Source: Acidobacteriota bacterium
Lineage (GTDB): Bacteria; Acidobacteriota; UBA4820
Assembly: GCA_029559035.1 (NCBI GenBank)
Contig: JAKQCT010000066.1
Location: 64,832 to 128,831 of the forward strand
DNA: 64,000 nucleotides
Direction of reading: 5' to 3'
Both the position numbers and the translations under genes were made by a program. The notes beneath the pieces were generated by a model. The model saw only the letters and a program-made list of their open reading frames with translations, had not been told where the DNA came from and ran no database searches. Positions 17,964-36,756 of this stretch are shown one piece after another (position 1 is the stretch's first letter; each line of letters begins with the position of its first letter).

Positions 17964-20900
17964 CTATGGACTGCAAGTGCTCTGTAAGGGGTCTATTTCT
18001 ATAATATTTGAATCATACCCGCTGGGGCCTTCAACTCCACCGCCAAAGGCAGTAACGAGGTAGTAATGGTTTCCCTCGCTCGGGCTTATCTCCACCCGCA
18101 TCTCCCCCGTGCCAAGGTCCTCGACTGTCGCCTGACAGACGCTGCCTGGCTTATTGTCGTGGTGATAGATCCCGTCCCATGGAGAAACGATATCTCCTTC
18201 GTAGATGTTGTAGCCGTCCAAGGAATCCAATCTTTGAAAATACATATAAAAACCTGTTGAAGATGCAACATCTTTTACCAATCTTGCCACGAAGATTGCA
18301 TCTGACGGTGACACTTCCGACGCAGGGCAAAAATCCACAAATACTTGGAATTCGCTTGAAAAGCCCGCACACCCATCAGGATTCATCACTTGAACTTTGT
18401 AATTTCCTGAAGTCTTTGCGTCGTAATTTTGCATTGTTGCGCCTACGATCAAAAAATTGTTCAAGTACCATTGGTAACTACTATAGCTTCCGGTGGCTAA
18501 AGAAACATAAGTTGATGGGCACATGTTTAAATGGTCGCCTGATATGGAAGGTGTGGGAGTTTGATAAACAACAACTTCCTTTCCGCTTGATGTTGCGACG
18601 CAACCGTCCGCAGTTGAAACCCTTACTGCGTATGTCCCACTTAAAACTGCACTATGGTTCTGTCCGGTTGCACCGATAAGATCAGTTCCATTTCGCATCC
18701 ATTGATATGTCGAAAATGCTTGCGTAGATATTTCGACTGAACCACAGCCAGTGCTGTTGCCAATAACCGAAGGATTTGGAGTAGGATATACCGTAATTGC
18801 CTTATCTTGGGAAACACCCACGCATCCGTTTGAATTTGTCACTCGAACTGCAAATACTCCAGTTTCTGATGTTGAATAACTCTGGCTGTTTGCCCCTGGG
18901 ATATCGATCGCATCCTTGATCCATTGGTAACTTTCATATACTTCTGTGGATAATAGGACAGAATCGCATGCGTTATTACCTGAGATTGTTGGAGAAGGAG
19001 AAGCATCTATGGTAACCGCTTTGGCGTTAGAGATTGATGTGCAGCCTCCGATATTGCCTACTCTTACACTGTAATTTCCAGTTGTTGTCGCTATATAAGA
19101 TTGATTGGTTGCTCCAGTAATATCTATTCCATCGCCGATCCACTGGTAACTCGCATAGCTTCCTGTAGAAAGCGCAACGCTTCCACACCCGTTCGACGGT
19201 CCGGTTATTGTCGGTGGTGTGGGGTATGCATACACAGTGAAAATAGGACTGATTGCCTGACACGCATGGGAATCAGTTACTTTGACCGTATAATTGCCTG
19301 GGACCACAGCCTCGTAGTTCTTGCCTGTTGCCCCCGATATAACTGAGCCATTTCTGTACCATTGATAGTTACCGGGAATAATTTCTTGGGTGCTCAAGTT
19401 GGCCGTCTGGCAGGCAGGACTCGGACCTGTAATAACCGGAGAAGGAGCACTCCAGTCATACACATTCACGCCTTCTGTTGATGAAGCATATCCATAACCG
19501 TTCCTGTAAACCACTTGGTACAGATAAGTCTGCCCGTTCTCCCCGGTTAAATCAATATACTCGACATTTCCATAAAGAATACTACTTGCGATCTTGACGC
19601 CATCTCTTGTCACATCATACGAACGCGTTCCGTTCCCATCATCATTCCAATTAAAAGGGTCCTGCTGCCAAGAGATCAATACGCCCGTATCGCCACATCC
19701 ATCAAGATCAACAGCACTATTGTTGATCGTACATTCCGGGGAAGCATGATAGTCATATGCCCATAAAGATTCATTGGATAAAGCGGATTCCACAAAGAAA
19801 TATAGCCGCAGATTCGATGCCGTAAGATTTTGGATGTCTGCGGATAAAGCACCCGGGTTAATGTCCGACACGCGTATTGTGCCAACTCCTGTCCCGTCGC
19901 TTTTCCAAAGCTCCATGCCATTAATGCCATCATCGGCCAAGAAGAAAAGCTCGCCACTCGCATAAGTTAGATATGTCGGATTTGATGAGGAAGCGCCACT
20001 GCGTAAATCCTCAACTATCACAGTGCCGGAAGGAGTGCCGTCGCTTTTCCATAATTCAGTGCCACTTGTATTATCATTGGCGGTAAAGAAGAGAATTCCG
20101 TTTGCATTAATCAAGTTGCTTGGATCTGATGATGATGCCCCGCTTGATATATCTTTTACCAGGGCGGTTCCTGCGGTTGTGCCGTCGCTCTTCCAGAGTT
20201 CACAGCCATTTACGCCGTCATCGACGGTAAAGAATAAAGAGCCGTTCATAGCAACAAGATTGTCAATGCATGGGAATTCGATACTATAGAATCCCTTTAC
20301 GAGAACAGTCCCGGCGGCAGTGCCATCGCTCTTCCATAATTCATTACCCCTTAATGTAAAGAATAATAATCCATCAACGCTTACAAGACCCTCCGGAGAT
20401 GTGTCGAAATGCGAGACCACTACTGTCCCGGCAGTTGTTCCGTCGCTTTTGCATAGATCAGAGTCAGACCAAGCGAGGCCTGCTGTAAAAAATAGTGTTC
20501 CTTCTGAATTCACCAACCTCTCCACTGCTTGATATCCATAATTCATTATGAGAACTGTCCCCGCGTCGGTCCCATCACTTTTCCAGAGCCCATTGGCATT
20601 AGCTGAAGGGTTATGCGCGGCGAAATAAAGAATATCGTTTACATTTGTAAGATATGCCGGACAACTCCCCTCTGCGCCAGGATAAATATCCTTAACTAAT
20701 GCCGTTCCTGGTTCAGTTCCATCGCTTTTCCAAAGTTCCCGTCCATGCAGACCATCATCCGCGGAAAAAACCAATGCCCCGCCGACATCTATGAAGTCCC
20801 TCGGATCGGAGCCATCGGAGCCTGAATAAATATCCTTAACCCTGACAGTACCAGCTTCAGTGCCGTCGCTTTTCCACAGTTCATTATCAATTGTTCCCTG

Positions 20901-22424
20901 ATTTCCTGAAAAATAGAGCGTGTTATTAATGCTCGCCGTAATACGCTCCTGAAAGTTGTAGTAATTGTTCTTGACCATGACGGTTCCGTTCTCGGTCCCG
21001 TCACTTTTCCAGAGCTCTATGCCGTGAGAGCCATCATTGGCACTAAAGTAAAGAACGCCATTTACATTTGTAAGATGATTCGGGTAACTTCCCTTTACGC
21101 CTTCATAAATATCTTTAACTAAAGTGGTTCCAACTTCAGTGCCGTCACTTTTCCACAGTTCAAAATGCAAATTATCATATTCATCCACAGAATCAAAGGT
21201 TCTAAAATATAGTATCCCATTCACATTTGTAAAATTTTGGCTGAAATCGTACCCACCAATACTAACGGTTCCTCCCGCTGTTCCGTCACTTTTCCATAAT
21301 GTTCCACCTGTACAATATATAAATAGCAACCCATCTGCGTTCACGAGACATTTAGCCCCCTCAATATATTTTATTGCCACTGTTCCGGCAGTCGTCCCGT
21401 CGCTTTTCCACAACTCATTTCCCGCGGAAAAATAGAGCGTGCCGTTTACATTTACTAAATTATCAGGCCAAGGATAGGCCGAGATGGTGGTCAATTGCAA
21501 TGTGCCTGCTTCAGTTCCATCGCTTTTCCAAAGTTCGACACTTTCTGTTGTTTCGTCCCGAGCTGTAAAGAAAAGAATCCCATTTACATTTGTAAGGTTA
21601 TCAGGGGGGAAATATTTCCATACGTAACTGGGCATATTTTTTACCAGCACAGTTCCGGACTCTGTTCCGTCGCTTTTCCATATGCTGGAATCTCCTTCTG
21701 AATGATCTTTTGCAACGAAAAAAAGAGTCCCATTAACATCTGTCATACATCTTATATATGCACCATCCGGATTTGTTGTTATGTCTTTTACGACTATTGT
21801 GCCTGTAGAAGTTCCATCACTTTTCCACAGCACCCTCTTAAAAAAATATTCTGGATTCCCCGCAGTGAAGAAAAGTGTACCATTCACATTGATCAGATTC
21901 TCCGGATATGACGGTATCCATCCATTCGATAAAAATTGCTTAACCATTATTGTTCCAGCTTCAGTGCCATCACTCTTCCATAATTCATAGCCGTTCTGGC
22001 CGGAACGCGCTCTAAAAAAAAGAGTCCCGTTCACATTCGTAAGATATTTGGGATAAGAAGATGCTTCCCCCGTATTAATGTCCTTGATCATATATGTGCC
22101 TGTCGCGGTTCCGTCGCTTCGCCATAGTTCCTCACCGTGATGAATATCATCCGCAACATAATAAGCAATATTACCTATTCCTACAATTTCAGTACCAGCT
22201 TCAAGACCGCCCCATGAATCCATCGCTGAAACTGCTTTCACCTGATATGGGTTGATCTCCGAAAGTTCACTGTTTTTATTGATGTATGGTGACTGGTCAG
22301 TTTTAATGGTTTGATAGCCATAATCATTGTTACCAGACATAGTATATTGAGCGTGAGTAACATGAGTAATAATTGAAGAAAGAACGATGAAAGCTATGAT
22401 ATTACCGATTGCACTAAGCTTCAT
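17964..22424 (-). CDS. Giant (1486 aa) secreted surface protein: ~20 ELWxxDGT repeats, ~6 Cys-containing Ig-like ~75-aa repeats, C-terminal domain
   Basis: Signal peptide MKLSAIGNIIAFIVLSSIITHVTHA. Reiterated (E/N)LWKSDGT(E/A)AGT…VKDI modules. Then repeats of …C(G/D)SV.LST..Y.SYQW…G(A/T)…Y.V.V…GC…; lower GC than flanks. Confidence 0.85.
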   Translation of the reverse strand: MKLSAIGNIIAFIVLSSIITHVTHAQYTMSGNNDYGYQTIKTDQSPYINKNSELSEINPYQVKAVSAMDSWGGLEAGTEIVGIGNIAYYVADDIHHGEELWRSDGTATGTYMIKDINTGEASSYPKYLTNVNGTLFFRARSGQNGYELWKSDGTEAGTIMVKQFLSNGWIPSYPENLINVNGTLFFTAGNPEYFFKRVLWKSDGTSTGTIVVKDITTNPDGAYIRCMTDVNGTLFFVAKDHSEGDSSIWKSDGTESGTVLVKNMPSYVWKYFPPDNLTNVNGILFFTARDETTESVELWKSDGTEAGTLQLTTISAYPWPDNLVNVNGTLYFSAGNELWKSDGTTAGTVAIKYIEGAKCLVNADGLLFIYCTGGTLWKSDGTAGGTVSIGGYDFSQNFTNVNGILYFRTFDSVDEYDNLHFELWKSDGTEVGTTLVKDIYEGVKGSYPNHLTNVNGVLYFSANDGSHGIELWKSDGTENGTVMVKNNYYNFQERITASINNTLYFSGNQGTIDNELWKSDGTEAGTVRVKDIYSGSDGSDPRDFIDVGGALVFSADDGLHGRELWKSDGTEPGTALVKDIYPGAEGSCPAYLTNVNDILYFAAHNPSANANGLWKSDGTDAGTVLIMNYGYQAVERLVNSEGTLFFTAGLAWSDSDLCKSDGTTAGTVVVSHFDTSPEGLVSVDGLLFFTLRGNELWKSDGTAAGTVLVKGFYSIEFPCIDNLVAMNGSLFFTVDDGVNGCELWKSDGTTAGTALVKDISSGASSSDPSNLINANGILFFTANDNTSGTELWKSDGTPSGTVIVEDLRSGASSSNPTYLTYASGELFFLADDGINGMELWKSDGTGVGTIRVSDINPGALSADIQNLTASNLRLYFFVESALSNESLWAYDYHASPECTINNSAVDLDGCGDTGVLISWQQDPFNWNDDGNGTRSYDVTRDGVKIASSILYGNVEYIDLTGENGQTYLYQVVYRNGYGYASSTEGVNVYDWSAPSPVITGPSPACQTANLSTQEIIPGNYQWYRNGSVISGATGKNYEAVVPGNYTVKVTDSHACQAISPIFTVYAYPTPPTITGPSNGCGSVALSTGSYASYQWIGDGIDITGATNQSYIATTTGNYSVRVGNIGGCTSISNAKAVTIDASPSPTISGNNACDSVLLSTEVYESYQWIKDAIDIPGANSQSYSTSETGVFAVRVTNSNGCVGVSQDKAITVYPTPNPSVIGNSTGCGSVEISTQAFSTYQWMRNGTDLIGATGQNHSAVLSGTYAVRVSTADGCVATSSGKEVVVYQTPTPSISGDHLNMCPSTYVSLATGSYSSYQWYLNNFLIVGATMQNYDAKTSGNYKVQVMNPDGCAGFSSEFQVFVDFCPASEVSPSDAIFVARLVKDVASSTGFYMYFQRLDSLDGYNIYEGDIVSPWDGIYHHDNKPGSVCQATVEDLGTGEMRVEISPSEGNHYYLVTAFGGGVEGPSGYDSNIIEIDPLQSTCSP

Positions 22425-22461
22425 TTTCCTACCCCCTTTGACAAGATCTTATTATAGGTCC

Positions 22462-22470
22462 ATTGTCAAC
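22462..22470. promoter_or_regulatory. ATTGTCAAC motif in the promoter region of the giant surface-protein gene (same 9-mer as the 38212-38307 direct repeats)
   Basis: ggtccATTGTCAACaaattgacaagg. Confidence 0.3.
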
Positions 22471-22530
22471 AAATTGACAAGGGCTGAAGGCGCAAGGCTG
22501 AAGTTCAATAGGGAATGTTGGTTTTTCTTA

Positions 22531-22643
22531 GGGGTGATTCACGAATCGCACGAATTGCCCCCCCGCCATACCCGCACAGTAAAGAATCCGGTCATCACGA
22601 GAAAGGCCCGCAGCGTTTCAAACGAAGTGATCTGCCTTATCCC
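22531..22643 (+). repeat. Family C repeat, full copy 2
   Basis: ggggtgattcacgaatcgcacgaattgccc…ccgccatacccgcacagtaaagaatccggtcatcacgagaaaggcccgcagcgtttcaaacgaagtgatctgccttatccc. Confidence 0.65.
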
Positions 22644-22747
22644 TTCCCTATCAACCCTTCAGCCTCCAGCCTTCAGCCTTCAGCTCTGGCGCAAGCCTTC
22701 CGCCTTCCGCACCGCCCTTCGGGCATTATCCTTGACACTTTTCCCGG

Positions 22748-24553: not shown

Positions 24554-24577
24554 CAACATTCTTATTAGGAGGAATGA

Positions 24578-24991
24578 ATGCCTTTTTATCATTTTACTGA
24601 CACAAGGAACCTTCCTTCAATAAAACGTCACGGTCTCCTTAGTTGGTACAACTTACGCAATAGGAACATCGATCATTTTCCTGCATCTAATGATCTATCC
24701 CGTAAACTCGACTTAAAAAAAAGCCTTGAGAATTATGTCCGTCTTTGCTTAAAACCAAATCACCCTATGGCAAGTCGAGCATTATCTGAAGGAAGAATCC
24801 AAAGAATAGCATGGTTAGTTATTGATGACGCAGTGTCGCGGTGGCGATCCACCCTCTATAGCAATACAAATGCAACCGCAAACAATGCCGTAATTGATCA
24901 TGATATTAGAACGATTTACAATAGTTTTGATTCTCAGGCTGAAGTTCTTGTCGAAGGAGGTATTTCTCTCAAATGGATTACATTTCCGTAA
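24578..24991 (+). CDS. darT: DarT-like (DUF4433) DNA ADP-ribosyltransferase toxin, compact 137-aa form
   Basis: MPFYHFTDTRNLPSIKRHGLLS (DUF4433 N-motif), …ENYVRLCLKPNHPM…, C-terminal …SQAEVLVEGGISLKWI (catalytic Glu in QAE[VF]LV context). AGGAGG RBS; first gene of the AT-rich island. Confidence 0.6.
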   Translation: MPFYHFTDTRNLPSIKRHGLLSWYNLRNRNIDHFPASNDLSRKLDLKKSLENYVRLCLKPNHPMASRALSEGRIQRIAWLVIDDAVSRWRSTLYSNTNATANNAVIDHDIRTIYNSFDSQAEVLVEGGISLKWITFP

Positions 24992-25024
24992 TTTGATGGT
25001 TTCATTGAAAGAGCGAGGATAGAA

Positions 25025-25720
25025 TTGGCAGAAAGACCTGTTTTTATTCCTAATCACACCGGCAAGCAACTTGTTATTGAGAAAAATATTTCTTTTCATT
25101 GGAATCCAGGAATGAGCATATCTCAGAAAAGAAAGAACATAGTTGCTTTGCACGAAGCCGCCAGCATGATTGGAGTGTCACCGATTCTTGAAGTATCTAC
25201 AAAGTCCGATCAACAGATTGGCAATAGATTAAGTGCCTTCAACCTCAAAGTTAGAAGGAATACTGGGACACATATTTCTCTGGAATCTGCATTCCAAGGC
25301 AGTAAGGTATTTAAATACGGCGGCCCCTATAGTGACTTATATGGAAAAAGTGGCTTTGAGTGCAAAAAGGACGAGCGATTAAAGAACTCCGGTGAACTGG
25401 TTTCTTTCTGTTATGATGGCATTGAATGGGATCTTTCACCCCATACAGCTTTTTATGATTGGCTATATGTGAACGCAGTCCATTCGGGTCCATGTATTGA
25501 TGATGTGCTTCTTAGATACAACGGGTTCAGCGATATTGAATTCAATCCGGCAAAATCAATCAACTGCCAGGCCCGCTCATGCGCTTTATATGTTTCTCTG
25601 AAGAAAAGAAAACTTCTCGAAAATGCCATTAAAGACAAAGATTGTTTTATTGAACTGGTAAAAAACGGATACATTCAAAAGACCGACTTATCCCAAATGC
25701 ATCAAGGGAGCTTATTTTAG
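25025..25720 (+). CDS. Uncharacterised 231-aa protein in the antitoxin position downstream of darT-like; not a macrodomain
   Basis: 34-nt gap, same strand. No macro motifs (no GGG…AI / GIYG). Weak by-eye NADAR-like pattern FKYGGPYSDLYGKSGF…DGIEWDLSPHTAF. Confidence 0.5.
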   Translation: MAERPVFIPNHTGKQLVIEKNISFHWNPGMSISQKRKNIVALHEAASMIGVSPILEVSTKSDQQIGNRLSAFNLKVRRNTGTHISLESAFQGSKVFKYGGPYSDLYGKSGFECKKDERLKNSGELVSFCYDGIEWDLSPHTAFYDWLYVNAVHSGPCIDDVLLRYNGFSDIEFNPAKSINCQARSCALYVSLKKRKLLENAIKDKDCFIELVKNGYIQKTDLSQMHQGSLF

Positions 25721-25821: not shown

Positions 25822-26949
25822 CTATTTAATTACGGTACGCTTCATCCATTGGATGTCGCCTTCCTGAGAGTCTTTTCCTGATAACAGTACTTCATATTGT
25901 TCATTTTGAAGTTGACGGAAATACACTCTCCATTTTACCGCCTTAGAATGATACTCCTTCCATCCTTTATTTTGTCCTTCTACTCTCCACCCATCGATTT
26001 GGTTATTTATTATATTATGAATACTCTTTATGGCGTTAATTATTTCCTGGTCAGACAATTCAATTAATGCCATTTCTATGCTGCTCCGAACAAATATTAC
26101 GTTGGGCATTAACACTTCAATTATTGATGTAACTAAGTTCTTTCGGTCTGACAATGATGAATCCTTGTGCATTTTATCAAATATAGTTGTATTATCATTT
26201 TGAAGTCGGCATTTTTCTTGCCTAAGATGAGCGATCTCCATTTCACGTTGTTTTAATTCATTGTCAAATTCACTGATGTAATCGTTTAATTCTTTTTCTT
26301 TTTTCTCTATTTCTATCTTGAAATTAAATATTTCCTTATCTTTATTTTCTATTATTGCTTTGTACTCCGATTCGAGCTTATCTTTAGTTTGACTTTCAAG
26401 TCTCTCCTGGATTTTACTATTCAAAACATCGTTTTCTTCTTTACTTGATCTGAGCGATATTTCAAGTTCCTTCATCTTATTATTTTTACTAGCTATTTCC
26501 TTTTGATATTTTGCCTTCAGGGTTTCAACCTCAATATTTCTTAAAAACAATTCTTTTTCTATCGTTTCAATTCTGTTCAGGGATTCTTTAAGTGATTGAG
26601 ATGTATCATCTGCTTTTTTCTGAATTGCTTCCTGCGGAAGAGCAATATCTTGCTTTTTTTCCTCCTGCAAAGAAGTTTTCGTAAGACGTTGCTTCTTTTT
26701 TAATACTGCTCGCACCACAGCATTAATTTTTGTCTTACTCAATATATTGCTTTCACCTTCAACCCGGAAGTACCAATTGTATTGAATCCCATCAGATGCC
26801 GGACGAAAACTGTAGTTCTTCTTCGTTACTTGAATACCTTTTGATAATAATGCTTTTTCAATCTCATCATAATAGCCTTCAAAGGAGCGAGGAAGTAAAA
26901 GATATTTGAAATAACCTTGTTCGTCATAATACCATTTAGCATCTGACAT
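25822..26949 (-). CDS. Coiled-coil protein (375 aa) with small globular N- and C-terminal domains
   Basis: Long heptad-rich KE-rich middle (…LKAKYQKEIASKNNKMKELEISLRSSKEEND…); AT-rich codon usage. Confidence 0.5.
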   Translation of the reverse strand: MSDAKWYYDEQGYFKYLLLPRSFEGYYDEIEKALLSKGIQVTKKNYSFRPASDGIQYNWYFRVEGESNILSKTKINAVVRAVLKKKQRLTKTSLQEEKKQDIALPQEAIQKKADDTSQSLKESLNRIETIEKELFLRNIEVETLKAKYQKEIASKNNKMKELEISLRSSKEENDVLNSKIQERLESQTKDKLESEYKAIIENKDKEIFNFKIEIEKKEKELNDYISEFDNELKQREMEIAHLRQEKCRLQNDNTTIFDKMHKDSSLSDRKNLVTSIIEVLMPNVIFVRSSIEMALIELSDQEIINAIKSIHNIINNQIDGWRVEGQNKGWKEYHSKAVKWRVYFRQLQNEQYEVLLSGKDSQEGDIQWMKRTVIK

Positions 26950-27163
26950 TCACTACCTCCCCATATGCATCATTAAATGAACATTTTTTCAAAAGTGTTG
27001 TGATCTAACACTACTGAAAATATTTGCCCATCATGCTTCATCAACTCCTCTCCACCATTTTTCACGCCCAATCTATTCTACTCCTATCCTATTTCCAAAA
27101 AAATCCCCCGCCCTTGGGCTTTCGCTTCGGGGCGGGGGTGTCTTCAGCCATCAGCCTTCAGTT

Positions 27164-27898
27164 TTACTGTTTTGCTGCTTTCTTCGCCTTTCTCGTCGCT
27201 GCGGCCTTTTCGGGGGCTTTGCGCTGCGCGGCTGTCTTGCCGTTGCGCTTCAATATGCCCAGCTTTTCAAGAAGCTGGGGCTGGTCCCTCAGGGCGACCT
27301 TTGCGACCTTGATGAACGCGCTCATCCAATAGTCGATCGCTTCCATCGCCTTGTTCTGTTCATAGGTGGCCTGCTGGGCGGCTCCCTTCGCCGATTCCTG
27401 CGCCTGGTTCGCGGCCGTCAGCTCGACGATCTTTCCCCTCTCCTTCGAAAGCTTTTCGACAGTATATCCGTAAGACGACAGGATGTCGGTTATCTCCGCC
27501 GTGTGCGAAGCGTTGTCAAAGAGGGCCGTCGCCATCGTGATGAACAGCGGCAGGGCGTTCGGCATCGCGGCGTTCAACCCCAGAACCGCCAGCTTGGCCT
27601 TGTCCCTGACAAAAGCCGCCCTCGCCACCTGGGCGAGGTTCTGATAAGCCTTTTTCGCCTCCTTCTCGGCAGCCGACAACCTTGCCGTCGAATCCTTCTG
27701 GTCCCCGTAAGCGGCGACCTGCTTCTTTACAGCCGCCTCGGCCGCCTCGTACAAGCCCTTGCCCTCGCTGATCTTTGCCGTCTGGTAGCCGTACTCCCCC
27801 AAAAGCTGTCCGATCTGGGGATCCGAAAGAGCATTCGAAATTGCCACGTTCGCGGAAATCAACCTCTCTGACAAAGCGTTCTTCGGTCTGACCATCAT
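27164..27898 (-). CDS. Alpha-helical protein with C-terminal Lys/Ala-rich histone-H1/AlgP-like tail; candidate DNA-binding protein for the adjacent iteron array
   Basis: C-terminus …KTAAQRKAPEKAAATRKAKKAAKQ. The gene start abuts the 21-bp repeat array. Confidence 0.45.
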   Translation of the reverse strand: MMVRPKNALSERLISANVAISNALSDPQIGQLLGEYGYQTAKISEGKGLYEAAEAAVKKQVAAYGDQKDSTARLSAAEKEAKKAYQNLAQVARAAFVRDKAKLAVLGLNAAMPNALPLFITMATALFDNASHTAEITDILSSYGYTVEKLSKERGKIVELTAANQAQESAKGAAQQATYEQNKAMEAIDYWMSAFIKVAKVALRDQPQLLEKLGILKRNGKTAAQRKAPEKAAATRKAKKAAKQ

Positions 27899-27940: not shown

Positions 27941-28306
27941 TGCTACTGGATTATCTTTCACTGCTACAACTCTATTTGCCTTTGCTACCGCCCCATTTGA
28001 CACTGCTACAGCCCGATTTCCCACTGCTACCATCCTATTTGTCGTTGCTACGACCCGATTTGTCCTTGCTACCGGGACGACAGCCATTGCTACCACGGTA
28101 GCAACCGCAGACAGGCCGGTAGCAACCATAAAATGACCGGTAGCAATCGTTTTTATGCCGGTAGCAATCACAGAAAGAGCGGTAGCAGCCATTAACATGG
28201 CCGTAGCAGACACAATTATGGCGGTAGCAACAATAATGTTACAGGTAGCGGACATAATTGTGGCGGTAGCAGACACAAACATGCCGGTAGGAATCAAAAA
28301 GAGAGA
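27941..28306. repeat. Non-coding array of 18 exactly 21-bp-phased repeats: 8x TGCTAC(C)… converging on 10x GGTAGCA… (inverted), centre TTGCTACCACGGTAGCAA; iteron / centromere-like (parC-type) site
   Basis: TGCTAC at 27941, 27962, 27983, 28004, 28025, 28046, 28067, 28088. GGTAGCA (or 1-mismatch) at 28097, 28118, 28139, 28160, 28181, 28202, 28223, 28244, 28265, 28286. Each unit also has an AT-rich sub-core (cc.ATTTg). Confidence 0.85.
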
Positions 28307-28482: not shown

Positions 28483-29913
28483 TTAGGTTAAGCCCATATC
28501 GTTCTTAATCTCAATAATAACTTCTTCTGTTCTTTCTCTTAACAAAGAATATTTTGACATTTCCTTTGTAGTATCTAGAAAAGATTCGAGTTTTTCCAAA
28601 GCCACAGGTGCGTTGTTTATCTTATAATAATAAAGAAACCCCAGAATAAAAAGAGAAGCATAAAACGTTGGGTTTTGTTGAAAATAGCTCTCGTTAAACC
28701 TGGTGCATCTGTCGATTGCCACAACTTCATTCTTAAAAATGTTGTCCTTTATTCTCGTATAATAGGAATAAGCGGTCTCATAATTCTCTATATACATATT
28801 TAGGAAGGCTTGGTTGTAAAGCCAAGTGCCGTCGCCATCAGAGAGAATTCCCGCCGCTCGACAATAATCCAATGCTTTATAGGCATCTCCATCAATTAGA
28901 AAAGCATAGTAAGCCTTTGATACAACAATAGAGTAATTGTTCTTATCAATTTTCTCAGCTTTAGCAACAAATGCCTTTGCCGATTTAATATCAGCTTTAG
29001 CATAGGCATTAATGGCTTTTTGAATGAGTTCCTCTATCAGCATCGAGCGTGTTCTTTCGTAAATATACACTATATTTGGTGGTTGTGGCTTGAAGTTCGA
29101 TAGATCCGCAAGCAGAGTGTTGTGGATATTATATGCAGTATTTGGATCGCCAGATACTAAGGCTGCCCATCCAATCATATACTGAGATGCCAAAAAGATC
29201 ATTTCCGCAGTGACTTGAAAACCACTAACTTCAAATGCCTCGTCAAACACAACTTCCTTCGGCAAAATTGCGTTGAATTCTTTTGATGCCTCTTTTGTAA
29301 CTGAGAAGTCTTTTGGTACATGTCTCACCATTGCGTTAAAAGTCAAGTAATATTTCTCTTCCCCCTCCTTTCGTTTTATAACGGAACCCCATATATACAA
29401 ATGAAAATGAGTCTTATTAATGAGTTTGCTGTGCATCTTGATTTTCTTGCTTTTTTGAAAGTCTTTTATTCTTTTCGTTTCAAGAAGCTTCTTCATTTCA
29501 TGTTGATATTCCATGAATAATTCATTAGCCATTTGGGCCTTGCACTCTTCAAAACATACTATATTAAGGAGATCGTCCAGTTTTTTCTTTTTACTTACCG
29601 CGTTCATGTTTTTAATAAAATCGTTTTTGATTCTGATTTTTTGATCGTCGTCTTCCGCTGTTATAGAAACGGCAATACCAATTCTATTCTTCAGGTTTTT
29701 AGGGTAGTGTTCTTTCCATAAGTACCAAGTAACAAACCAGCCAAAAAAAAGGATTAGATAAATCACCCATCTCAGCCATACTTCATCCAGAATATCTTTT
29801 AGCAAGCCATCTGTTGGTAATATCACCACCAGATACAACATAATGCAGCCAACGAAAAAGCCAACAGGTTTATTCTTGTATGTGTGGAAATACTCTTTAG
29901 GTAACTCAATCAT
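28483..29913 (-). CDS. Membrane-anchored (2 TM) TPR/Sel1-like helical-repeat protein, last gene of the Type III-like R-M operon
   Basis: N-terminal TM helices (…VGFFVGCIMLYLVVILP…, …WVIYLILFFGWFVTWYLW…); C-terminal TPR-like Ala/Tyr-rich repeats; AT-rich. Confidence 0.55.
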   Translation of the reverse strand: MIELPKEYFHTYKNKPVGFFVGCIMLYLVVILPTDGLLKDILDEVWLRWVIYLILFFGWFVTWYLWKEHYPKNLKNRIGIAVSITAEDDDQKIRIKNDFIKNMNAVSKKKKLDDLLNIVCFEECKAQMANELFMEYQHEMKKLLETKRIKDFQKSKKIKMHSKLINKTHFHLYIWGSVIKRKEGEEKYYLTFNAMVRHVPKDFSVTKEASKEFNAILPKEVVFDEAFEVSGFQVTAEMIFLASQYMIGWAALVSGDPNTAYNIHNTLLADLSNFKPQPPNIVYIYERTRSMLIEELIQKAINAYAKADIKSAKAFVAKAEKIDKNNYSIVVSKAYYAFLIDGDAYKALDYCRAAGILSDGDGTWLYNQAFLNMYIENYETAYSYYTRIKDNIFKNEVVAIDRCTRFNESYFQQNPTFYASLFILGFLYYYKINNAPVALEKLESFLDTTKEMSKYSLLRERTEEVIIEIKNDMGLT

Positions 29914-29958: not shown

Positions 29959-30309
29959 TCATCCAATCGTCATGATCATGTATTCCATGTTCCTCTGCTT
30001 GCACCATATTTCCGCTGCTTTTCGTTTTCTCTGGACATCGTCGGAATCTATCCGGCTCGGGTCTTTGACTTCAATTATTACTTTCTTCCCATCTTCATAT
30101 TCGACGAAAAAATCCGGCACATACTTTCTTTGATGCTTCTGCCCATCGATCCAGGGAATGGTAATGCCGTGCCTTTTCATCCATTTCTTCACGAAAGGGT
30201 CTTTTTCAAGGCGGTCCATCATTCTTCTCTCAAGATCGCTGTGGTAGTTCTCGAAGTTCCAGGGGCTCTTCTTCGGATTTGCGTATTCACCGCGAATGCT
30301 AATCGCCAT
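29959..30309 (-). CDS. Small PD-(D/E)xK nuclease-fold protein (116 aa), possibly the detached endonuclease module of the upstream Res helicase
   Basis: …YVPDFFVEYEDGKKVIIEVKD… = D…E-V-K core; overlaps the res stop by 11 nt. Confidence 0.5.
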   Translation of the reverse strand: MAISIRGEYANPKKSPWNFENYHSDLERRMMDRLEKDPFVKKWMKRHGITIPWIDGQKHQRKYVPDFFVEYEDGKKVIIEVKDPSRIDSDDVQRKRKAAEIWCKQRNMEYMIMTIG

Positions 30310-32317
30310 ATTCTATTATCCCCCCTATAAGGCCAGGAACCTCTCTCACGTTCCTAAGTACCTGGGTAAGCATTCTCCATGCATAATCAATTTCCTGGCG
30401 ATCTGCAAGCCCGATGGAGTTGCCGTTCATGAATCTTTTCCTGACATGGTGAAGCAGGGCGCTGTAAACCTTGTCTTTTGAAGATGCTGCATACCCTGCC
30501 TCCACAGTCAATGCTTCTGCCATTTCAAGCAACCTTGATTTTAGTGCTTCTCTCACATCATCGTCGCTGATTTCCACTATGGGGATTTGGCCTTCATATT
30601 CCCCGGGAGCGGCATGAACACTTTTCCAGCCTTCCCCACCAAGCTCCTGCCCTGTCACCCCGTTAATCTCAACTTTTGTTATTTCAACAACATTGGGATC
30701 ATACTGGATTGCGTTTAAAGCTTCCTTCCAGTTTTCAAGCGGTTTCGGTGGAGGAGGGACATCCCCGACATCGAATTCGCCCTCATCCTTATAATCAGGG
30801 TCTATCGGAGGAAGATCAATAACGTTGTCAGGTTCGGTCAGTTCCTGTTTCTTTGGCGGCGGCGGCAAATCCTCCGTCTCATCAAAGAGGTCATCGATCT
30901 TGACGCCGACCCTTTTCTTTGCGTTGAAAATATCCCACAGCCATTGATGCTCAAGCTTTGGGTGGTCAACTACCGCGCAAATCTGCGGCTCGGAAGCATC
31001 AACCCCCTTGGCTCGCACCCGTCTAAGACCGCGACCAACAACTTGTTGTCCGTAAACCTTGCTCCCGAATTTTCTAAGAAGCAGTATCACCCCAACCTCA
31101 GGCACGTCCCAACCTTCGCGAAGCATCAGAACACTTACAACCGCGCGATACGGCATTGCGGTCTTCTGCTGTCTTCCAAGCTCTCTTGCCTTCTGCCTGT
31201 CCTCTTCGTCGCTGTCCTCTGTAACCATGAGCGCTTTTACTTTAAAATAGTTATTCAAGGTCTGTGCGGCCTTTTCTGCGTCAGCTTTGCACACCGCCAC
31301 TACAAAAAGAATAGGCTGGTATCGTCCCTTCGCTCGGCCTTCCTGTTCTTCAAGACGCTTTAATGCTATTGCCATCTGTTGGCGCATGGGCTCATCGTCC
31401 GTAACCCACTGTGTCGCGTTCAAGCCCAGCCGGTCTACCTCGTCCCAATCAATTTCCTCAACCTTCCTCTTTTCTCCCGTCTTTGCATCTGTATATGTCA
31501 GCTGAACCGTCTTGATATCAGGCTGATAGACAACCGGTGTCTTGATGATCCCGTCTGACAGCGCGTCTCTTACGCCGTATTCATAGATCATCTCGCTGTC
31601 CGGCACTTTCCCGTCGGCTCTGTCGGGAGTGGCCGTAGTGTCGAGGCGCAGGATGACCTTTTCTCTCATCTTCTTGAGGGTTGCGTCATATTCAGTAGCG
31701 GGCGAGTTGTGGGCTTCATCATTGAATAGGACAAACTCTGGCCCGTTCATGAGCGCAGAAAGGTTACTCTGGCCGCTTTTATTGCTCTGATAGAACTGAT
31801 GAATATTTCCAAGAACAACATCCGCCGAGAAAAGGCTGGCCCATCCCTTCTCCCTGTCAGCCCCAAGAGTAGTAAGAATGAAATCCTTGGATGTGGAATG
31901 CCCCCATTCTGGCAACAGGTCGCGGTCTACGAACACCTTCCCATTCTGAAAATCGTCTTCCAGCCTGTCCCTTACAATGAGATTGGGGCACAGCATGACG
32001 AATTTTCTCGTATCGTAGGCTATCCTTTGCCAGGCAATTACCGCCGCGATAATTGCTGTTTTGCCGCCCCCTGTAACTATGTTCAAAAGAAGGCCGTCAA
32101 GTCCTATCACCGGTTTCTTTAGTATCTCATGCGAATAAATGACTCTGAGAAAAGATTCCCACTGATGAGGCCATAAAGTCCCTTCTCTCGGCAGTTGGTC
32201 GTCATCTTTCGAAGTAAGAAAACCGATATATTTGTACGATTCATCCTTCAGCCCCGGCATCCCGTCACGTCGCCAATCCCTGAAGGCATCCTCATGTCGA
32301 GAGAATTGATTAAACAT
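30299..32317 (-). CDS. res: Type III restriction enzyme Res-like SF2 helicase (DEAH), apparently lacking its own nuclease domain
   Basis: Walker A TGGGKT, motif II FNDEAHNS, helicase C-domain motifs; 672 aa, shorter than typical ~900-1000 aa Res. Confidence 0.8.
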   Translation of the reverse strand: MFNQFSRHEDAFRDWRRDGMPGLKDESYKYIGFLTSKDDDQLPREGTLWPHQWESFLRVIYSHEILKKPVIGLDGLLLNIVTGGGKTAIIAAVIAWQRIAYDTRKFVMLCPNLIVRDRLEDDFQNGKVFVDRDLLPEWGHSTSKDFILTTLGADREKGWASLFSADVVLGNIHQFYQSNKSGQSNLSALMNGPEFVLFNDEAHNSPATEYDATLKKMREKVILRLDTTATPDRADGKVPDSEMIYEYGVRDALSDGIIKTPVVYQPDIKTVQLTYTDAKTGEKRKVEEIDWDEVDRLGLNATQWVTDDEPMRQQMAIALKRLEEQEGRAKGRYQPILFVVAVCKADAEKAAQTLNNYFKVKALMVTEDSDEEDRQKARELGRQQKTAMPYRAVVSVLMLREGWDVPEVGVILLLRKFGSKVYGQQVVGRGLRRVRAKGVDASEPQICAVVDHPKLEHQWLWDIFNAKKRVGVKIDDLFDETEDLPPPPKKQELTEPDNVIDLPPIDPDYKDEGEFDVGDVPPPPKPLENWKEALNAIQYDPNVVEITKVEINGVTGQELGGEGWKSVHAAPGEYEGQIPIVEISDDDVREALKSRLLEMAEALTVEAGYAASSKDKVYSALLHHVRKRFMNGNSIGLADRQEIDYAWRMLTQVLRNVREVPGLIGGIIEYGD

Positions 32318-32318
32318 C

Positions 32319-34334
32319 CTATTTCACCTCAACTTCGCCGGTCCAAATGCCTTCACCGCCCATATCATCCTGGACTTTACAGGCGACCGTAATCTTTCCT
32401 TCTTCGGGGAATTCATACTGAACCGACGACATCGGTTCCTTCTTGTCTGTCTTGGCAAATGCGTAATTGGCAGAGCTAGAAAAGCGATCTTGGTAATCAA
32501 AATCCCACTGAACATTGATTATTTTTGCGCCGGGATTCATAACGATAGTTTCGCTGGCGTCGAATTTATAAACCTTGTGGCTGATTCTCCTCATCCCCAC
32601 TTCTACCTTTGGGGATTGGACGAAGGTAAGGAAATTTTCGTAATCGGCGTGATCGGTGGAGAGCTTGGTGATGTGCTGCCGGAACGGTGGTGAATCAATG
32701 CGCACCATATCGAGCCGGATAAAATTGAGGTCTGTCAACTCCAGTCGTCTTAGCCTCTCAGCAGCTTCAACAGCATCAGGCCTGAACGCCCAGGCAAGCA
32801 TCATTCCGTCCCTTAAGTTGTCCTGCTGATATCTGAGCCCTTTTCTTATAGCATTGGCGAAATCCTGAACATCCTTGGAGGTGACCGCTTTTTTCTGGTC
32901 GGGCGATCCTATCCAGATTGGGATTGCCCCCTTATACCCATGTATCCCTTTTTCATTGCTCTCTATAACAGCGCCGAAAGCTTTTAAAACAAACGCCTGG
33001 AATTCCTTTTCCGGCATCTTCTCCATACGGCGTGCTTCATATACGCCCCAGTGCTCGACAGTGAAGTCGGGAACGGGGAAAAGGTTGCCTATCTTTTCTT
33101 CAACGAGACGCGTCAACCGATCAGCAGTTATTGCCACAGCCACACGGGATTGATCGCAGGCAATCCAGTGACGGCCAAGACGCTGGGCAACTGCGGCTGT
33201 AGTACCGCCACCAGAAAAAACGTCAGCAACTACATCGCCTTCAATTGTGAATGCCTTAATTACCTTTTCAAGCAATTCTTCAGGCTTTTGCGTTGGATAT
33301 CCTATTCTTTCATTTGCTGACTGATTGATAATATCCATTACCCACCAGTCTTTAGGTTTAACACCAACTTTCTCATCAAGATAATCTACTCGACACAGCT
33401 CAGGAGCCTTTGTCAACCATTCAATACCCACATCAGTAGAATTTTGAATTGGGCTCTCTTTAAGATTTCTCCCGTGAAGCCGGAATCTTCTCCCGTCATT
33501 ATCAATATGCTTATATTTTTTAATCGTGACCTCTGAAAAGGTATCGGCTACATTTTTCCAATTGTAACGATAGTGGGGAAAACCACTCTTTGAATACCAT
33601 AATATAGTATCATGTTGTGGGACAAATCGAGAGGTGCTTTGGTAGTAAGTAGTGTTTTTGCACCAAATAATTTCGTTCTTAAACCCAGGTTCTTTGCCAT
33701 CCTTGTCTCCATGACCAAAGATTTTGTCCAACTCCACCTTCACGTAATGGACTGCATGCAAATCAAGATGCACAATAAGCGATCCAGACTTCTTCAACAA
33801 TCTCTTTATTTCATATAGCCTTGCATTAAGCCAGATGAGATATCCTGGCATTCCGCCTTCCCAAATATCCGAGAAGGAGCGCAGTTCATTCTTGTCACCA
33901 AATATCACATTGTAATTCCGCCCAGAGAAGAAAGGCGGGTCAATATAAACTAGGTCAATGCTCTCACTTGGGAGCTGCCTCATCACGTGCAAGTTATCTC
34001 CCCAAAATAGTCTATTGGGTTCGAGATCAGGATGTCCGAATTTGACCCTCTCGACTATCTGGAATGGCAGTGATATTGTCGGAAAGAGCTTCCTGAATCC
34101 TCTCCTTCTATCCCATCCCAGCGGCTCCTTTTCAACCGGAACGCTCCCGAATCTTGTTGGCGGCCGCCAGAAGTCTTCTTGCTCCGGTAACGCTTCAATA
34201 CGCTCTTCTTCCACAGGAACTTCAATCTTTTTGAACTCATCCTCTGAGGTGCCTATCTCGGCAATCAGCGTCTTCTTTCCTTCATCCTTTTTCTTTGTCA
34301 TTATTTTTCCCCATTTGTGCGTAAAGCTGCCCAA
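32319..34334 (-). CDS. mod: Type III-like Mod N6-adenine (or N4-cytosine) DNA methyltransferase
   Basis: Motif IV IDPPF before motif I FSGGGTT (beta-class order); abuts res (1-nt gap). Confidence 0.85.
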   Translation of the reverse strand: MGSFTHKWGKIMTKKKDEGKKTLIAEIGTSEDEFKKIEVPVEEERIEALPEQEDFWRPPTRFGSVPVEKEPLGWDRRRGFRKLFPTISLPFQIVERVKFGHPDLEPNRLFWGDNLHVMRQLPSESIDLVYIDPPFFSGRNYNVIFGDKNELRSFSDIWEGGMPGYLIWLNARLYEIKRLLKKSGSLIVHLDLHAVHYVKVELDKIFGHGDKDGKEPGFKNEIIWCKNTTYYQSTSRFVPQHDTILWYSKSGFPHYRYNWKNVADTFSEVTIKKYKHIDNDGRRFRLHGRNLKESPIQNSTDVGIEWLTKAPELCRVDYLDEKVGVKPKDWWVMDIINQSANERIGYPTQKPEELLEKVIKAFTIEGDVVADVFSGGGTTAAVAQRLGRHWIACDQSRVAVAITADRLTRLVEEKIGNLFPVPDFTVEHWGVYEARRMEKMPEKEFQAFVLKAFGAVIESNEKGIHGYKGAIPIWIGSPDQKKAVTSKDVQDFANAIRKGLRYQQDNLRDGMMLAWAFRPDAVEAAERLRRLELTDLNFIRLDMVRIDSPPFRQHITKLSTDHADYENFLTFVQSPKVEVGMRRISHKVYKFDASETIVMNPGAKIINVQWDFDYQDRFSSSANYAFAKTDKKEPMSSVQYEFPEEGKITVACKVQDDMGGEGIWTGEVEVK

Positions 34335-36634: not shown

Positions 36635-36756
36635 GGCTTCTCTCCTTTCCCTGCAACTTCAGCCTTAAGCCTTCAGCCTTAAGCCCTTGCGAAGCAATAT
36701 TATACTCCCTCCCCCCTGTCATTTGGAGCAACAGGCCCTCGCTCCGCTTTCGCTAC

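What the first reader, a model, noticed from the sequence alone, without database searches (positions are those of the whole stretch)
24578..25720. Compact DarT-like ADP-ribosyltransferase with a non-macrodomain partner at the head of a low-GC island
The 137-aa ORF carries the DUF4433/DarT N-terminal signature (FYHFTDTRNLPSIKRHGLLS), a Tyr-containing middle block (ENYVRLCLKPNHPM) and the C-terminal QAEVLVEG block that holds the catalytic Glu in DarT. This is an H-Y-E-like triad in only 137 aa, whereas typical DarT is ~200 aa. The co-directional gene 34 nt downstream sits in the antitoxin position but has none of the macrodomain motifs of DarG. By eye it has only a faint NADAR/YbiA-like pattern (FKYGGPYSDLYGKSGF … DGIEWDLSPHTAF). 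So this is either a minimal DarT with a NADAR-type or entirely new reversing enzyme, or a new DarT-like toxin with an unrelated immunity protein. It is the first gene of a horizontally acquired, AT-shifted defence island.
Basis: partly seen in the sequence, partly recalled or inferred. Interest (0 to 1): 0.8.

Follow-up and report, generated by a model that had tools for sequence, protein, structure and literature searches.

The report
Short DarT1–NADAR toxin–antitoxin pair
These two genes are a recognisable copy of the DarT1–NADAR (DarTG1) system, described in 2023, in which a toxin attaches ADP-ribose to DNA guanines and its partner removes it; the only unusual feature is a trimmed-down toxin, so the finding is largely ordinary.

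Summary
Window 24578-24991(+) encodes a 137-aa DarT-family ADP-ribosyltransferase, and 33 nt downstream 25025-25720(+) encodes a 231-aa protein. The partner is not new. It matches Pfam PF22397 "DarT1-associated NADAR antitoxin" over its full length (E 4.6e-88) and is 50% identical to the crystallised Geobacter lovleyi NADAR (8BAT). All four functional residues (E87, K94, K114, D170) are present. The pair is therefore a DarT1-NADAR (DarTG1) toxin-antitoxin and anti-phage module, characterised by Schuller et al. 2023.

The toxin is short for two reasons. The ARTT (acceptor) loop is half the usual length (24 versus 48 residues between Asn and Glu), and a C-terminal tail of about 40 aa is absent. 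This compact module recurs with a NADAR gene in every context examined, either alone or fused to varied N-terminal regions. The proposed H-Y-E tyrosine is not at the canonical position, which is Cys57.

The low-GC neighbourhood does hold defence genes.

Verdict: new member of a known kind, of modest interest.

The parts
24567..24572 (+). Shine-Dalgarno sequence AGGAGG, 5 nt before the toxin ATG
   Evidence: Read directly from the sequence. The upstream trypsin-like gene ends at 24553, only 24 nt before the toxin start. No sigma-70-like promoter was found in the gap.
24578..24991 (+). Compact DarT1-like DNA ADP-ribosyltransferase toxin, 137 aa
24590..24598 (+). Codons for H5-F6-T7, the NAD-binding His motif (E. 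coli C7 DarT1 H17-F18-T19)
   Evidence: Alignments. H5 is present in 60 of 60 compact-type relatives. Residue roles are taken from PMC11543638.
24701..24712 (+). Codons for R42 to D45, the proposed equivalents of DarT1 R52 and D54 (phosphate contact and proton relay)
   Evidence: hhalign pairs N38-D39-x-x-R42 with N48-D49-x-x-R52. R42 is conserved in 57 of 60 and D45 in 59 of 60. The D45/D54 equivalence needs a one-residue shift and is inferred.
24869..24871 (+). Codon for N98, equivalent to DarT1 N104, the guanine-coordinating Asn (His119 in thymine-specific DarT2)
   Evidence: The TNA(A/T) block aligns. N98 is conserved in 59 of 60. Role taken.
24872..24940 (+). Shortened ARTT (acceptor) loop, residues 99-121. 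The Asn-to-Glu distance is 24 residues, against 48 in DarT1 and 41 in DarT2
   Evidence: A single gap of about 21 columns lies at this place against both the canonical and the mid-size NADAR-linked DarT classes.
24935..24943 (+). Codons for Q120-A121-E122, containing the catalytic Glu (DarT1 Q150 and E152)
   Evidence: The QAEVLV block is identical to that of E. coli C7-like DarT1. E122 is conserved in 59 of 60 and Q120 in 54 of 60.
25015..25018 (+). Shine-Dalgarno-like GAGG, 6 nt before the NADAR TTG start
   Evidence: Read directly from the sequence. The N-terminus MAERPVF aligns with residue 1 of homologs and with position 1 of the profile.
25025..25720 (+). DarT1-associated NADAR antitoxin (DarG1-type ADP-ribosyl-guanine glycohydrolase), 231 aa
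   Evidence: PF22397, E 4.6e-88, profile positions 1-212 of 212 matched. 8BAT G. lovleyi NADAR, E 5.1e-65, 49.8% identity over 229 aligned positions. E87, K94, K114, D170 and E172 correspond to E. coli C7 NADAR E88, K95, K115, D171 and E173 (roles).

Best explanation
The two genes form a DarT1-NADAR (DarTG1-type) toxin-antitoxin module.

The 137-aa protein is an active, minimal DarT-fold ADP-ribosyltransferase. It uses NAD+ to attach ADP-ribose to a DNA base, most likely the exocyclic N2 of guanine in single-stranded DNA, which blocks replication of the cell or of an infecting phage. The 231-aa NADAR glycohydrolase, translated from the same transcript, removes the ADP-ribose from guanine and so keeps the toxin harmless. 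It acts enzymatically as a type IV antitoxin and is not expected to bind the toxin.

What is shown here: family membership and fold of both proteins, conservation of their catalytic residues, and the conserved gene pairing.

What is inferred: enzymatic activity, guanine specificity, toxicity and its rescue, and an anti-phage role.

The toxin belongs to a conserved compact sub-clade in which the ARTT loop is about half the length found in characterised DarT1 and DarT2, and the C-terminal tail of E. coli-type DarT1 is missing.
For: Partner: full-length PF22397 match, E 4.6e-88. It is 50% identical to the crystallised G. lovleyi NADAR. All residues shown by mutagenesis to be needed for guanine-ADPr hydrolysis or rescue are present (roles from PMC11543638).

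Toxin: PF14487 above the curated cutoff. The model has pLDDT 96 and superposes on E. coli C7 DarT1 (8BAQ) and on DarT2 structures at 1.7-2.2 A. The equivalents of the essential DarT1 residues H17, R52, D54, M71, N104 and E152 are present and conserved in 57-60 of 60 compact-type relatives. Asn at the base-coordinating position and a non-Tyr at the H-Y-E middle position are the DarT1 state, not the DarT2 state.

Pairing: a compact DarT lies immediately beside a PF22397 NADAR in every independent context examined. These are the window, L001, L081, L084-86, L087 and L088 with the NADAR gene immediately downstream, and L082/83 with it immediately upstream.

Expression: both genes have ribosome-binding sites and are 33 nt apart.

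Context: a Type III-like R-M system, RhuM/PDC-S05 and HicAB lie in the same low-GC stretch.
Against: No activity was measured. Sequence identity to the characterised DarT1 is only 21-26%. phmmer against PDB sequences is weak (E 0.05-0.08).

The guanine O6/N7 readers of E. coli C7 DarT1 (K74, Y75) are not conserved: the aligned positions are R67, which is variable, and A68. R35 is replaced by a conserved Trp.

Half of the ARTT loop that holds the DNA in solved structures is absent, so substrate or sequence preference could differ.

The NCBIfam toxin_DarT equivalog threshold is not reached (17.5 versus 150 bits). PADLOC v2 has no model that hits the partner, so automated defence finders may not call this system.

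No promoter-like site was found between the upstream gene and the toxin.
Confidence: 0.8

Rival explanations
1. This is the same DarT-NADAR module, but the halved ARTT loop and the loss of the K74/Y75-type guanine readers give the compact toxin a different substrate preference. This could be another sequence context, dsDNA or RNA, or a second base such as cytosine, within what a NADAR can still reverse.
For: The ARTT loop is the substrate-selectivity element of ARTs and the DNA scaffold in DarT, and here it is 24 instead of 48 residues. The K74/Y75 equivalents are not conserved. Some NADARs also remove cytidine-linked ADP-ribose (PMC12945103).
Against: N98 and Q120, the residues that hold guanine N2/N3 and the target phosphate in DarT1, are conserved in 59 and 54 of 60 relatives. 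The partner belongs to the DarT1-associated NADAR family whose tested members act on guanine-ADPr. E. coli C7 DarT1 showed no cytidine activity.
Confidence: 0.15
2. The 137-aa ORF is a truncated or decaying DarT remnant, inactive, left next to an orphan NADAR.
For: It is about 70 aa shorter than characterised DarT1. The Pfam match covers only profile positions 1-120 of 201.
Against: The whole chain folds as one confident domain (pLDDT 96) and 128-135 of 137 residues superpose on solved DarTs, including the strand carrying the catalytic Glu. Sixty relatives share the same short architecture with near-invariant catalytic residues, and several end at the same ...FP C-terminus. No frameshifted continuation exists, because the NADAR gene starts 33 nt after the stop codon.
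Confidence: 0.03
3. The pair is not primarily a phage-defence or addiction module. Instead it is a physiological, reversible DNA-modification switch controlling replication or growth, as proposed for DarTG in Mycobacterium tuberculosis.
For: DarTG systems have documented roles in growth control and transcriptional adaptation (PMC12170906 abstract). The toxin sits 24 nt behind a host-like 57% GC protease gene with no promoter of its own detected, and the same gene order recurs on an independent metagenomic contig.
Against: The genes are strongly AT-shifted relative to their left neighbour and lie beside R-M, RhuM/PDC-S05 and HicAB genes. Relatives sit on mobile elements carrying a serine recombinase or transposases, which is typical of defence or addiction cargo.
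Confidence: 0.1
4. It is a new DarT-like toxin neutralised by an unrelated immunity protein.
For: None beyond the absence of a macrodomain.
Against: The partner is a full-length, catalytically complete member of the DarT1-associated NADAR family.
Confidence: 0.01

Closest known systems
DarT1-NADAR (DarTG1) of E. coli C7 and Geobacter (Trichlorobacter) lovleyi; Schuller et al. 2023, PMC11543638; PDB 8BAQ/8BAR/8BAS (DarT1) and 8BAT (NADAR)
   Same: Same two-gene order, toxin then NADAR. Same partner family (PF22397), 50% identical to 8BAT, with E88, K95, K115 and D171 conserved. Same toxin fold. Same essential toxin residues (H17, R52, D54, M71, N104, Q150, E152) and an identical QAEVLV catalytic strand. 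Non-Tyr at the H-Y-E middle position.
   Different: The toxin is 137 aa against about 207. The ARTT loop is 24 residues between Asn and Glu against 48. The C-terminal tail of about 40 aa and the N-terminal leader of about 12 aa are absent. The NAD-binding loop region is about 8 residues longer and resembles the mid-size class. R35 is replaced by Trp, F72 by Ala, and K74/Y75 are not conserved. Identity to the characterised toxin is only 21-26%.
Mid-size NADAR-linked DarT class (about 170-177 aa), the commonest partner of PF22397 NADARs in the proteobacterial genomes sampled here (e.g. L002 Methylobacterium, L029 Rhizobium)
   Same: Closest profile match to the compact clade (hhalign probability 100%, E 1.6e-39). 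Shares the PxxNDxS...D, YV(R/H)LC, HPM and EGRI blocks and the lack of a C-terminal tail. Always directly upstream of the NADAR gene.
   Different: This class keeps an ARTT insert about 20 aa longer. It has K-x-E-(I/V)-L-V-P instead of QAEVLV, and GVSN-K instead of TNA(A/T) at the base-coordinating block.
DarT2-DarG (DarTG2), thymine-specific; PDB 7OMV-7ON0, 7OMU, 7YK3
   Different: Its antitoxin is a macrodomain protein. It has His119 instead of Asn at the base-coordinating position and Tyr71 present in the H-Y-E motif. It is sequence-specific for TNTC. None of these features is found here.
YarT-YbiA (Cihlova et al. 2024, PMC11125620)
   Same: An ART toxin neutralised by a NADAR-superfamily hydrolase.
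   Different: YarT is described as unrelated to DarT, and its partner belongs to the YbiA subfamily, which has a Glu catalytic residue. Here the toxin is a DarT, and the partner has the Asp (D170) arrangement of DarT1-associated NADARs.

Membership tests
DarT (PF14487 / DUF4433) DNA ADP-ribosyltransferases | Profile match above the curated threshold | tested here: met
   PF14487 scores 53.6 bits against a cutoff of 22.5, E 3.2e-14, but covers only profile positions 1-120 of 201. PADLOC DarT gives E 3.1e-7.
DarT (PF14487 / DUF4433) DNA ADP-ribosyltransferases | ART fold superposable on solved DarT structures | tested here: met
DarT (PF14487 / DUF4433) DNA ADP-ribosyltransferases | NAD-binding His on strand 1 and catalytic Glu on strand 5 | tested here: met
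   H5 and E122 align with H17 and E152. They are conserved in 60 of 60 and 59 of 60 relatives.
DarT (PF14487 / DUF4433) DNA ADP-ribosyltransferases | Long, PARP-like ARTT loop that scaffolds the DNA (41-48 residues between the base-coordinating residue and the Glu) | tested here: not met
   There are only 24 residues from N98 to E122, with a single gap of about 21 columns against both longer classes. The feature is described.
DarT (PF14487 / DUF4433) DNA ADP-ribosyltransferases | NCBIfam equivalog toxin_DarT (NF048013) threshold | tested here: not met
   17.5 bits against a cutoff of 150. The match is confined to residues 4-68.
DarT (PF14487 / DUF4433) DNA ADP-ribosyltransferases | ADP-ribosylation of ssDNA and toxicity when expressed alone | not testable with these tools
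   Needs expression and biochemical assays.
DarT1 subfamily (guanine-specific, NADAR-partnered) | Cognate NADAR (DarG1) gene directly downstream | tested here: met
   A PF22397 gene starts 33 nt downstream on the same strand. The same pairing is seen in every related context examined.
DarT1 subfamily (guanine-specific, NADAR-partnered) | Asn (N104) rather than His at the base-coordinating position, with Q150 contacting the target phosphate | tested here: met
   N98 and Q120 align with N104 and Q150. They are conserved in 59 and 54 of 60 relatives.
DarT1 subfamily (guanine-specific, NADAR-partnered) | R52-D54 pair and M71, essential by mutagenesis | tested here: met
   R42 (57 of 60), D45 (59 of 60) and M64 (58 of 60). 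The D45/D54 equivalence needs a one-residue shift and was not checked on superposed coordinates.
DarT1 subfamily (guanine-specific, NADAR-partnered) | Non-Tyr (Ser63) at the H-Y-E middle position | tested here: met
   Cys57 occupies this position. Across the clade it is C 39, S 10, T 4, A 4, V 1 and Y 1 of 60.
DarT1 subfamily (guanine-specific, NADAR-partnered) | K74 and Y75 recognising guanine N7 and O6 | tested here: not met
   The aligned positions are R67, which is variable, and A68 (46 of 60 Ala). The alignment in this segment is uncertain by one residue.
DarT1 subfamily (guanine-specific, NADAR-partnered) | Guanine-N2 specificity | not testable with these tools
   Needs in vitro assays on defined oligonucleotides.
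DarT1-associated NADAR antitoxin (PF22397, DarG1) | Full-length profile match above threshold | tested here: met
   294.6 bits against a cutoff of 27, E 4.6e-88, profile positions 1-212 of 212.
DarT1-associated NADAR antitoxin (PF22397, DarG1) | Homology to a solved DarT1-linked NADAR | tested here: met
   8BAT, E 5.1e-65, residues 1-229 aligned, 49.8% identity.
DarT1-associated NADAR antitoxin (PF22397, DarG1) | Catalytic E88, K95 and D171, and the rescue-essential K115 (E. coli C7 numbering) | tested here: met
   E87, K94, D170 and K114 are present. In the 11 aligned sequences the columns are invariant, apart from one Arg at the K115 column.
DarT1-associated NADAR antitoxin (PF22397, DarG1) | Guanine-ADPr glycohydrolase activity and rescue from the toxin | not testable with these tools
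   Needs biochemical and co-expression assays.
DarG (macrodomain antitoxin of DarTG2) | Macrodomain in the partner protein | tested here: not met
   No macrodomain family appears among the Pfam hits at E up to 1, and there is no PADLOC or NCBIfam hit for the partner.

The most novel reading that the evidence does not exclude
The compact DarT clade is a minimal 135-aa DNA-ADP-ribosylating cassette. Its ARTT loop is half length and it lacks the K74/Y75-type guanine readers. These changes could give it a substrate range different from characterised DarT1, for example another sequence or structure context, RNA, or a second base that NADAR can still remove. Its recurrent fusion to varied N-terminal regions (a membrane anchor plus an HTH-like segment, Sel1 repeats, proline-rich linker domains), always with a NADAR gene next door, could mark a set of differently targeted or regulated DarT toxins.
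Probability: 0.15. Interest if true: 0.5.

Novelty: new member of a known kind. Interest (0 to 1): 0.25.

Why it matters
The result mainly serves as a correction. A DarT with a non-macrodomain partner is not a new system. It is DarTG1, whose chemistry (reversible guanine-N2 ADP-ribosylation) and structures were published in 2023.

What remains of modest value is the toxin itself. This locus represents a conserved sub-clade in which the DarT catalytic core is reduced to about 135 residues and the ARTT loop is halved. That makes it a natural minimal scaffold for asking which parts of DarT are needed for DNA binding and base choice.

There is also a practical annotation point. The partner gets no hit in PADLOC v2.0.0 and the toxin fails the NCBIfam DarT equivalog threshold, so systems of this type may be missed by current automated defence annotation.

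Tried and rejected
Macrodomain, ARH or PARG partner: the only Pfam family hitting the partner at E up to 1 is PF22397.

Truncation or pseudogene: rejected on the fold, the clade-wide architecture and residue conservation.

PADLOC and NCBIfam gave no hit for the partner and only sub-threshold or weak hits for the toxin.

Island borders: no tRNA, no Rfam family and no integrase among the ORFs scanned. The only repeats spanning the region belong to a dispersed GCTGAAGG-rich intergenic family. This family also occurs outside and inside the low-GC stretch, so the repeats are not convincing att sites.

Promoter and terminator scan around the operon: counts were no higher than in shuffled sequence, and nothing lies in the 24-nt gap before the toxin.

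NADAR tree: a rough neighbour-joining tree did not place the NADARs partnered with compact toxins in one clade. The deep branches are unreliable, so no conclusion on toxin swapping was drawn.

Literature: in the papers read (PMC11543638, PMC11125620, PMC11257639, PMC12945103, PMC9967889) I found no description of short-ARTT DarT variants. This was not an exhaustive search.

Host taxonomy was not determined, because it would not change the verdict.
Full report
1. What is in the sequence

Window 24578-24991(+) is an ATG-started ORF of 137 aa, and 25025-25720(+) is a TTG-started ORF of 231 aa. The genes are 33 nt apart. Each is preceded by a ribosome-binding site: AGGAGG at 24567-24572 and GAGG at 25015-25018. 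The toxin starts only 24 nt after the stop codon of a 601-aa membrane-anchored trypsin-like protease gene (PF13365). No sigma-70-like promoter was found in that gap. GC content falls from 0.573 in the protease gene to 0.389 in the toxin and 0.397 in the partner, within about 100 nt.

2. The partner is a known antitoxin

Against Pfam, the 231-aa protein matches PF22397, "DarT1-associated NADAR antitoxin". The match covers the whole profile (1-212 of 212) at E 4.6e-88 and 294.6 bits, against a cutoff of 27. Against PDB sequences its only hit is 8BAT, the Geobacter lovleyi NADAR, at E 5.1e-65 over residues 1-229, with 49.8% identity.

Schuller et al. 2023 (PMC11543638) showed that DarT1-NADAR, also called DarTG1, is a toxin-antitoxin system. 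DarT1 links ADP-ribose to the N2 of guanine in ssDNA, and the NADAR hydrolyses that bond. In E. coli C7 NADAR, residues E88, K95 and D171 are needed for catalysis and K115 for rescue. I aligned the window protein with ten NADARs from genomes, including an Enterobacter protein that carries E, K, K, D and E at positions 88, 95, 115, 171 and 173. The window protein has E87, K94, K114, D170 and E172 in those columns. No macrodomain, ARH or PARG family hit the partner.

3. The toxin is an intact, compact DarT

Pfam PF14487 (DarT) is hit at 53.6 bits against a cutoff of 22.5, but only over profile positions 1-120 of 201. PADLOC DarT gives E 3.1e-7. The NCBIfam toxin_DarT equivalog is far below threshold, at 17.5 versus 150 bits.

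4. Catalytic residues

I used multiple and profile-profile alignments against E. coli C7-like DarT1 proteins recovered upstream of NADAR genes. L003 from Enterobacter shares the E. coli C7 numbering wherever the 8BAQ sequence was visible to me (chain residues 16-111). The hhalign probability was 99%, E 6.3e-17. The essential residues of DarT1 map as follows:

- H17, F18, T19 correspond to H5, F6, T7.
- S26 corresponds to S14.
- N48, D49 correspond to N38, D39.
- R52 corresponds to R42.
- D54 corresponds to D45, with a one-residue shift.
- M71 corresponds to M64.
- N104 corresponds to N98.
- Q150 and E152 correspond to Q120 and E122, within an identical QAEVLV strand.

Across 60 compact-type relatives (representatives of clusters at 50-90% identity), conservation is H5 60/60, R42 57/60, D45 59/60, M64 58/60, N98 59/60, Q120 54/60 and E122 59/60. 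This is the pattern expected of an active enzyme under selection.

There are differences from E. coli C7 DarT1. R35 is replaced by a conserved Trp (W23, 52/60) and F72 by Ala. The guanine O6/N7 readers K74 and Y75 have no conserved counterpart: R67 is variable and the next position is A68.

The position aligned with DarT2 Y71 and DarT1 S63 is Cys57, and it is Tyr in only 1 of 60 relatives. Y53 lies four residues earlier. Lacking that Tyr is itself a DarT1 trait.

5. Why the toxin is short

Between the base-coordinating Asn and the catalytic Glu lies the ARTT (acceptor) loop. In DarT this loop is unusually long and holds the DNA. The distance is 48 residues in DarT1 (N104 to E152) and 41 in DarT2 (H119 to E160), but 24 here (N98 to E122). 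The alignments show one clean gap of about 21 columns at this place. In addition, the tail of about 40 aa that follows the catalytic strand in E. coli-type DarT1 is absent, as is an N-terminal leader of about 12 aa.

Of the 80 NADAR loci from species-representative genomes, 36 had a recognisable upstream DarT. Measured from the His motif to the C-terminus, these fall into size classes. About 158 aa is the commonest class. About 181-216 aa is the E. coli C7-like class, with six cases. About 134 aa occurs once, in L001, an Acidimicrobiia MAG. The compact clade is closest to the mid-size class overall (hhalign probability 100%, E 1.6e-39). However, it shares the TNA(A/T) and QAEVLV active-site blocks with the characterised E. 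coli-type DarT1.

6. The compact toxin and the NADAR are a conserved pair

A search of 5.8 billion proteins found full-length relatives of 137-175 aa at 51-63% identity. An exhaustive HMMER scan of 1.84 billion cluster representatives found 1179 hits at E up to 1e-3 and 27 at E up to 1e-30. Among all proteins in hand, 60 match end to end without the ARTT insert.

In every context I examined, a PF22397 gene lies immediately beside the compact DarT:

- L001.
- Pseudomonas sp. o96-267, next to transposases (L081).
- An element with a serine recombinase, a primase-like gene and an ArdC-like gene, seen in three samples (L084-86).
- L087 and L088.
- An independent metagenomic contig identical to the window (L089).
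- L082/L083, where the order is DarT(230 aa)-NADAR-compact DarT.

Twenty-one of the 60 compact modules sit at the C-terminus of longer proteins. Their N-terminal regions vary: a TM helix plus a GcrA/HTH-like segment, Sel1 repeats, or a conserved N-domain plus a proline-rich linker. The two such fusions I could look up are also followed by a NADAR gene.

7. Context

The stretch 24.6-39.7 kb averages 0.453 GC, against 0.556 and 0.59 for the flanks. It contains the following:

- A Type III-like restriction-modification set: an N6/N4 methyltransferase at 32319-34334(-), a ResIII helicase at 30299-32317(-), and a small TnsA-like or REase_III C-terminal endonuclease ORF at 29959-30309(-).
- A RhuM-family protein matching the PADLOC candidate PDC-S05 at E 2.9e-155.
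- An HATPase plus DUF4325 protein.
- A HicA/HicB pair.

"Defence island" is therefore a fair description of the content. I found no tRNA, integrase or clean flanking repeat. One gene inside the stretch (PQLLE family, 27164-27898) has host-like GC of 0.584. A GCTGAAGG-rich intergenic repeat family occurs both inside and outside the stretch. The region thus looks like a mosaic variable region and not one freshly inserted block.

8. Mechanism and its status

Most likely (confidence about 0.8), the toxin ADP-ribosylates guanine in ssDNA using NAD+. H5, F6 and T7 bind NAD+. R42 and D45 handle the phosphate and the proton. M64 stabilises the oxocarbenium intermediate. N98 and Q120 hold the guanine and its phosphate. 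E122 is the catalytic residue. The NADAR removes the adduct through E87, K94 and D170, and acts as a type IV antitoxin that does not need to bind the toxin.

Family, fold, residues and pairing are shown here. Activity, base choice, toxicity and phage defence are inferred from the characterised homologs. The main uncertainty is what the halved ARTT loop and the missing K74/Y75 equivalents do to substrate recognition.

9. Novelty

The system type, its chemistry and structures of both components are published (PMC11543638), and the partner family has its own Pfam entry. The locus is a new member of a known kind. The short-ARTT toxin sub-clade and its N-terminal fusions were not mentioned in the papers I read. 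They are a modest point of interest for structure-function work. They also matter for annotation, because PADLOC v2.0.0 has no hit for the partner and NCBIfam does not name the toxin.

Noticed in passing
L082:3579-5477 and L083:3-1862: In two metagenomic contigs a single PF22397 NADAR gene is flanked by two toxins: a 230-aa DarT upstream and a 158-aa compact-clade DarT downstream. Gene junctions range from a 1-nt overlap to a 1-nt gap. The cluster sits among RVT_1, UvrD-like helicase, ClpS, AAA_11/12 helicase and Y1 transposase genes. One antitoxin may serve two toxins.
   Followed up: no
Proteins P0029, P0031, P0034, P0036, P0038, P0042, P0047, P0057; loci L087:278-1912 and L088:280-1888: The 135-aa compact DarT module forms the C-terminal domain of 21 of 60 relatives. 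The N-terminal regions vary: a TM helix plus a GcrA/HTH-like segment, Sel1 repeats, or a conserved N-domain plus a proline-rich linker. The two fusions that could be looked up are also followed directly by a NADAR gene.
   Followed up: partly
window 29959-34334 (-): A Type III-like restriction-modification cluster: an N6/N4 methyltransferase (32319-34334), a ResIII/SNF2-like helicase (30299-32317), and a separate 116-aa TnsA-like endonuclease ORF (29959-30309). The small ORF matches the C-terminal end of Type III Res proteins and overlaps the helicase ORF by 11 nt. This is either a naturally split Res or a frameshifted one.
   Followed up: partly
window 35188-36231 (-): A RhuM-family protein (PF13310, E 3.1e-98) that matches the PADLOC candidate defence family PDC-S05 at E 2.9e-155.
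   Followed up: partly
window 38567-39070 (-): A HicA toxin (75 aa, PF07927, E 2.9e-14) and a HicB-like antitoxin (91 aa, PF15919, E 4.8e-9) form an adjacent pair near the right end of the low-GC stretch.
   Followed up: yes
window 37131-38189 (-): A 352-aa protein with a weak, sub-threshold N-terminal MarR-like HTH match, a histidine-kinase-like ATPase domain and a C-terminal DUF4325 (STAS-like) domain. It gives weak PADLOC hits to Csa3/CARF-type regulators. Its function is unknown.
   Followed up: no
window 22450-22733, 27139-27176, 36282-37119, 38414-38548, 39059-39403: A dispersed intergenic repeat family rich in GCTGAAGG units. It includes a 179-nt pair at 98% identity (36755-36933 and 39094-39272) and a 53-nt inverted pair at 92% (22591-22643 and 38425-38477). 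Copies lie both outside and inside the low-GC stretch, so they do not define clean island borders.
   Followed up: partly
window 27959-28302: A degenerate tandem array of about 16 copies with a 21-nt period and a recurring (C/G)GGTAGCA core. It lies between the PQLLE-family gene and the 476-aa gene. It overlaps mechanical ORFs on both strands and has no assigned function.
   Followed up: no
window 27164-27898 (-): A PQLLE-family protein (NCBIfam NF052641, E 8.8e-53) with host-like GC (0.584) embedded in the low-GC stretch. This suggests the region is a mosaic and not one acquired block.
   Followed up: no
window 25822-26949 (-) and 28483-29913 (-): Two very AT-rich ORFs (GC 0.33 and 0.36) with no significant family match in Pfam, PADLOC or NCBIfam. 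One is a 375-aa protein that looks coiled-coil-rich and is convergent with the NADAR gene. The other is a 476-aa protein with predicted N-terminal membrane segments. Both are candidates for unknown defence genes.
   Followed up: no
window 17964-22424 (-): A 1486-aa protein made of about 150-nt periodic 'ELWKSDGT' repeats, with GC 0.445, lower than the flanks. It lies just left of the protease-DarT-NADAR genes.
   Followed up: no
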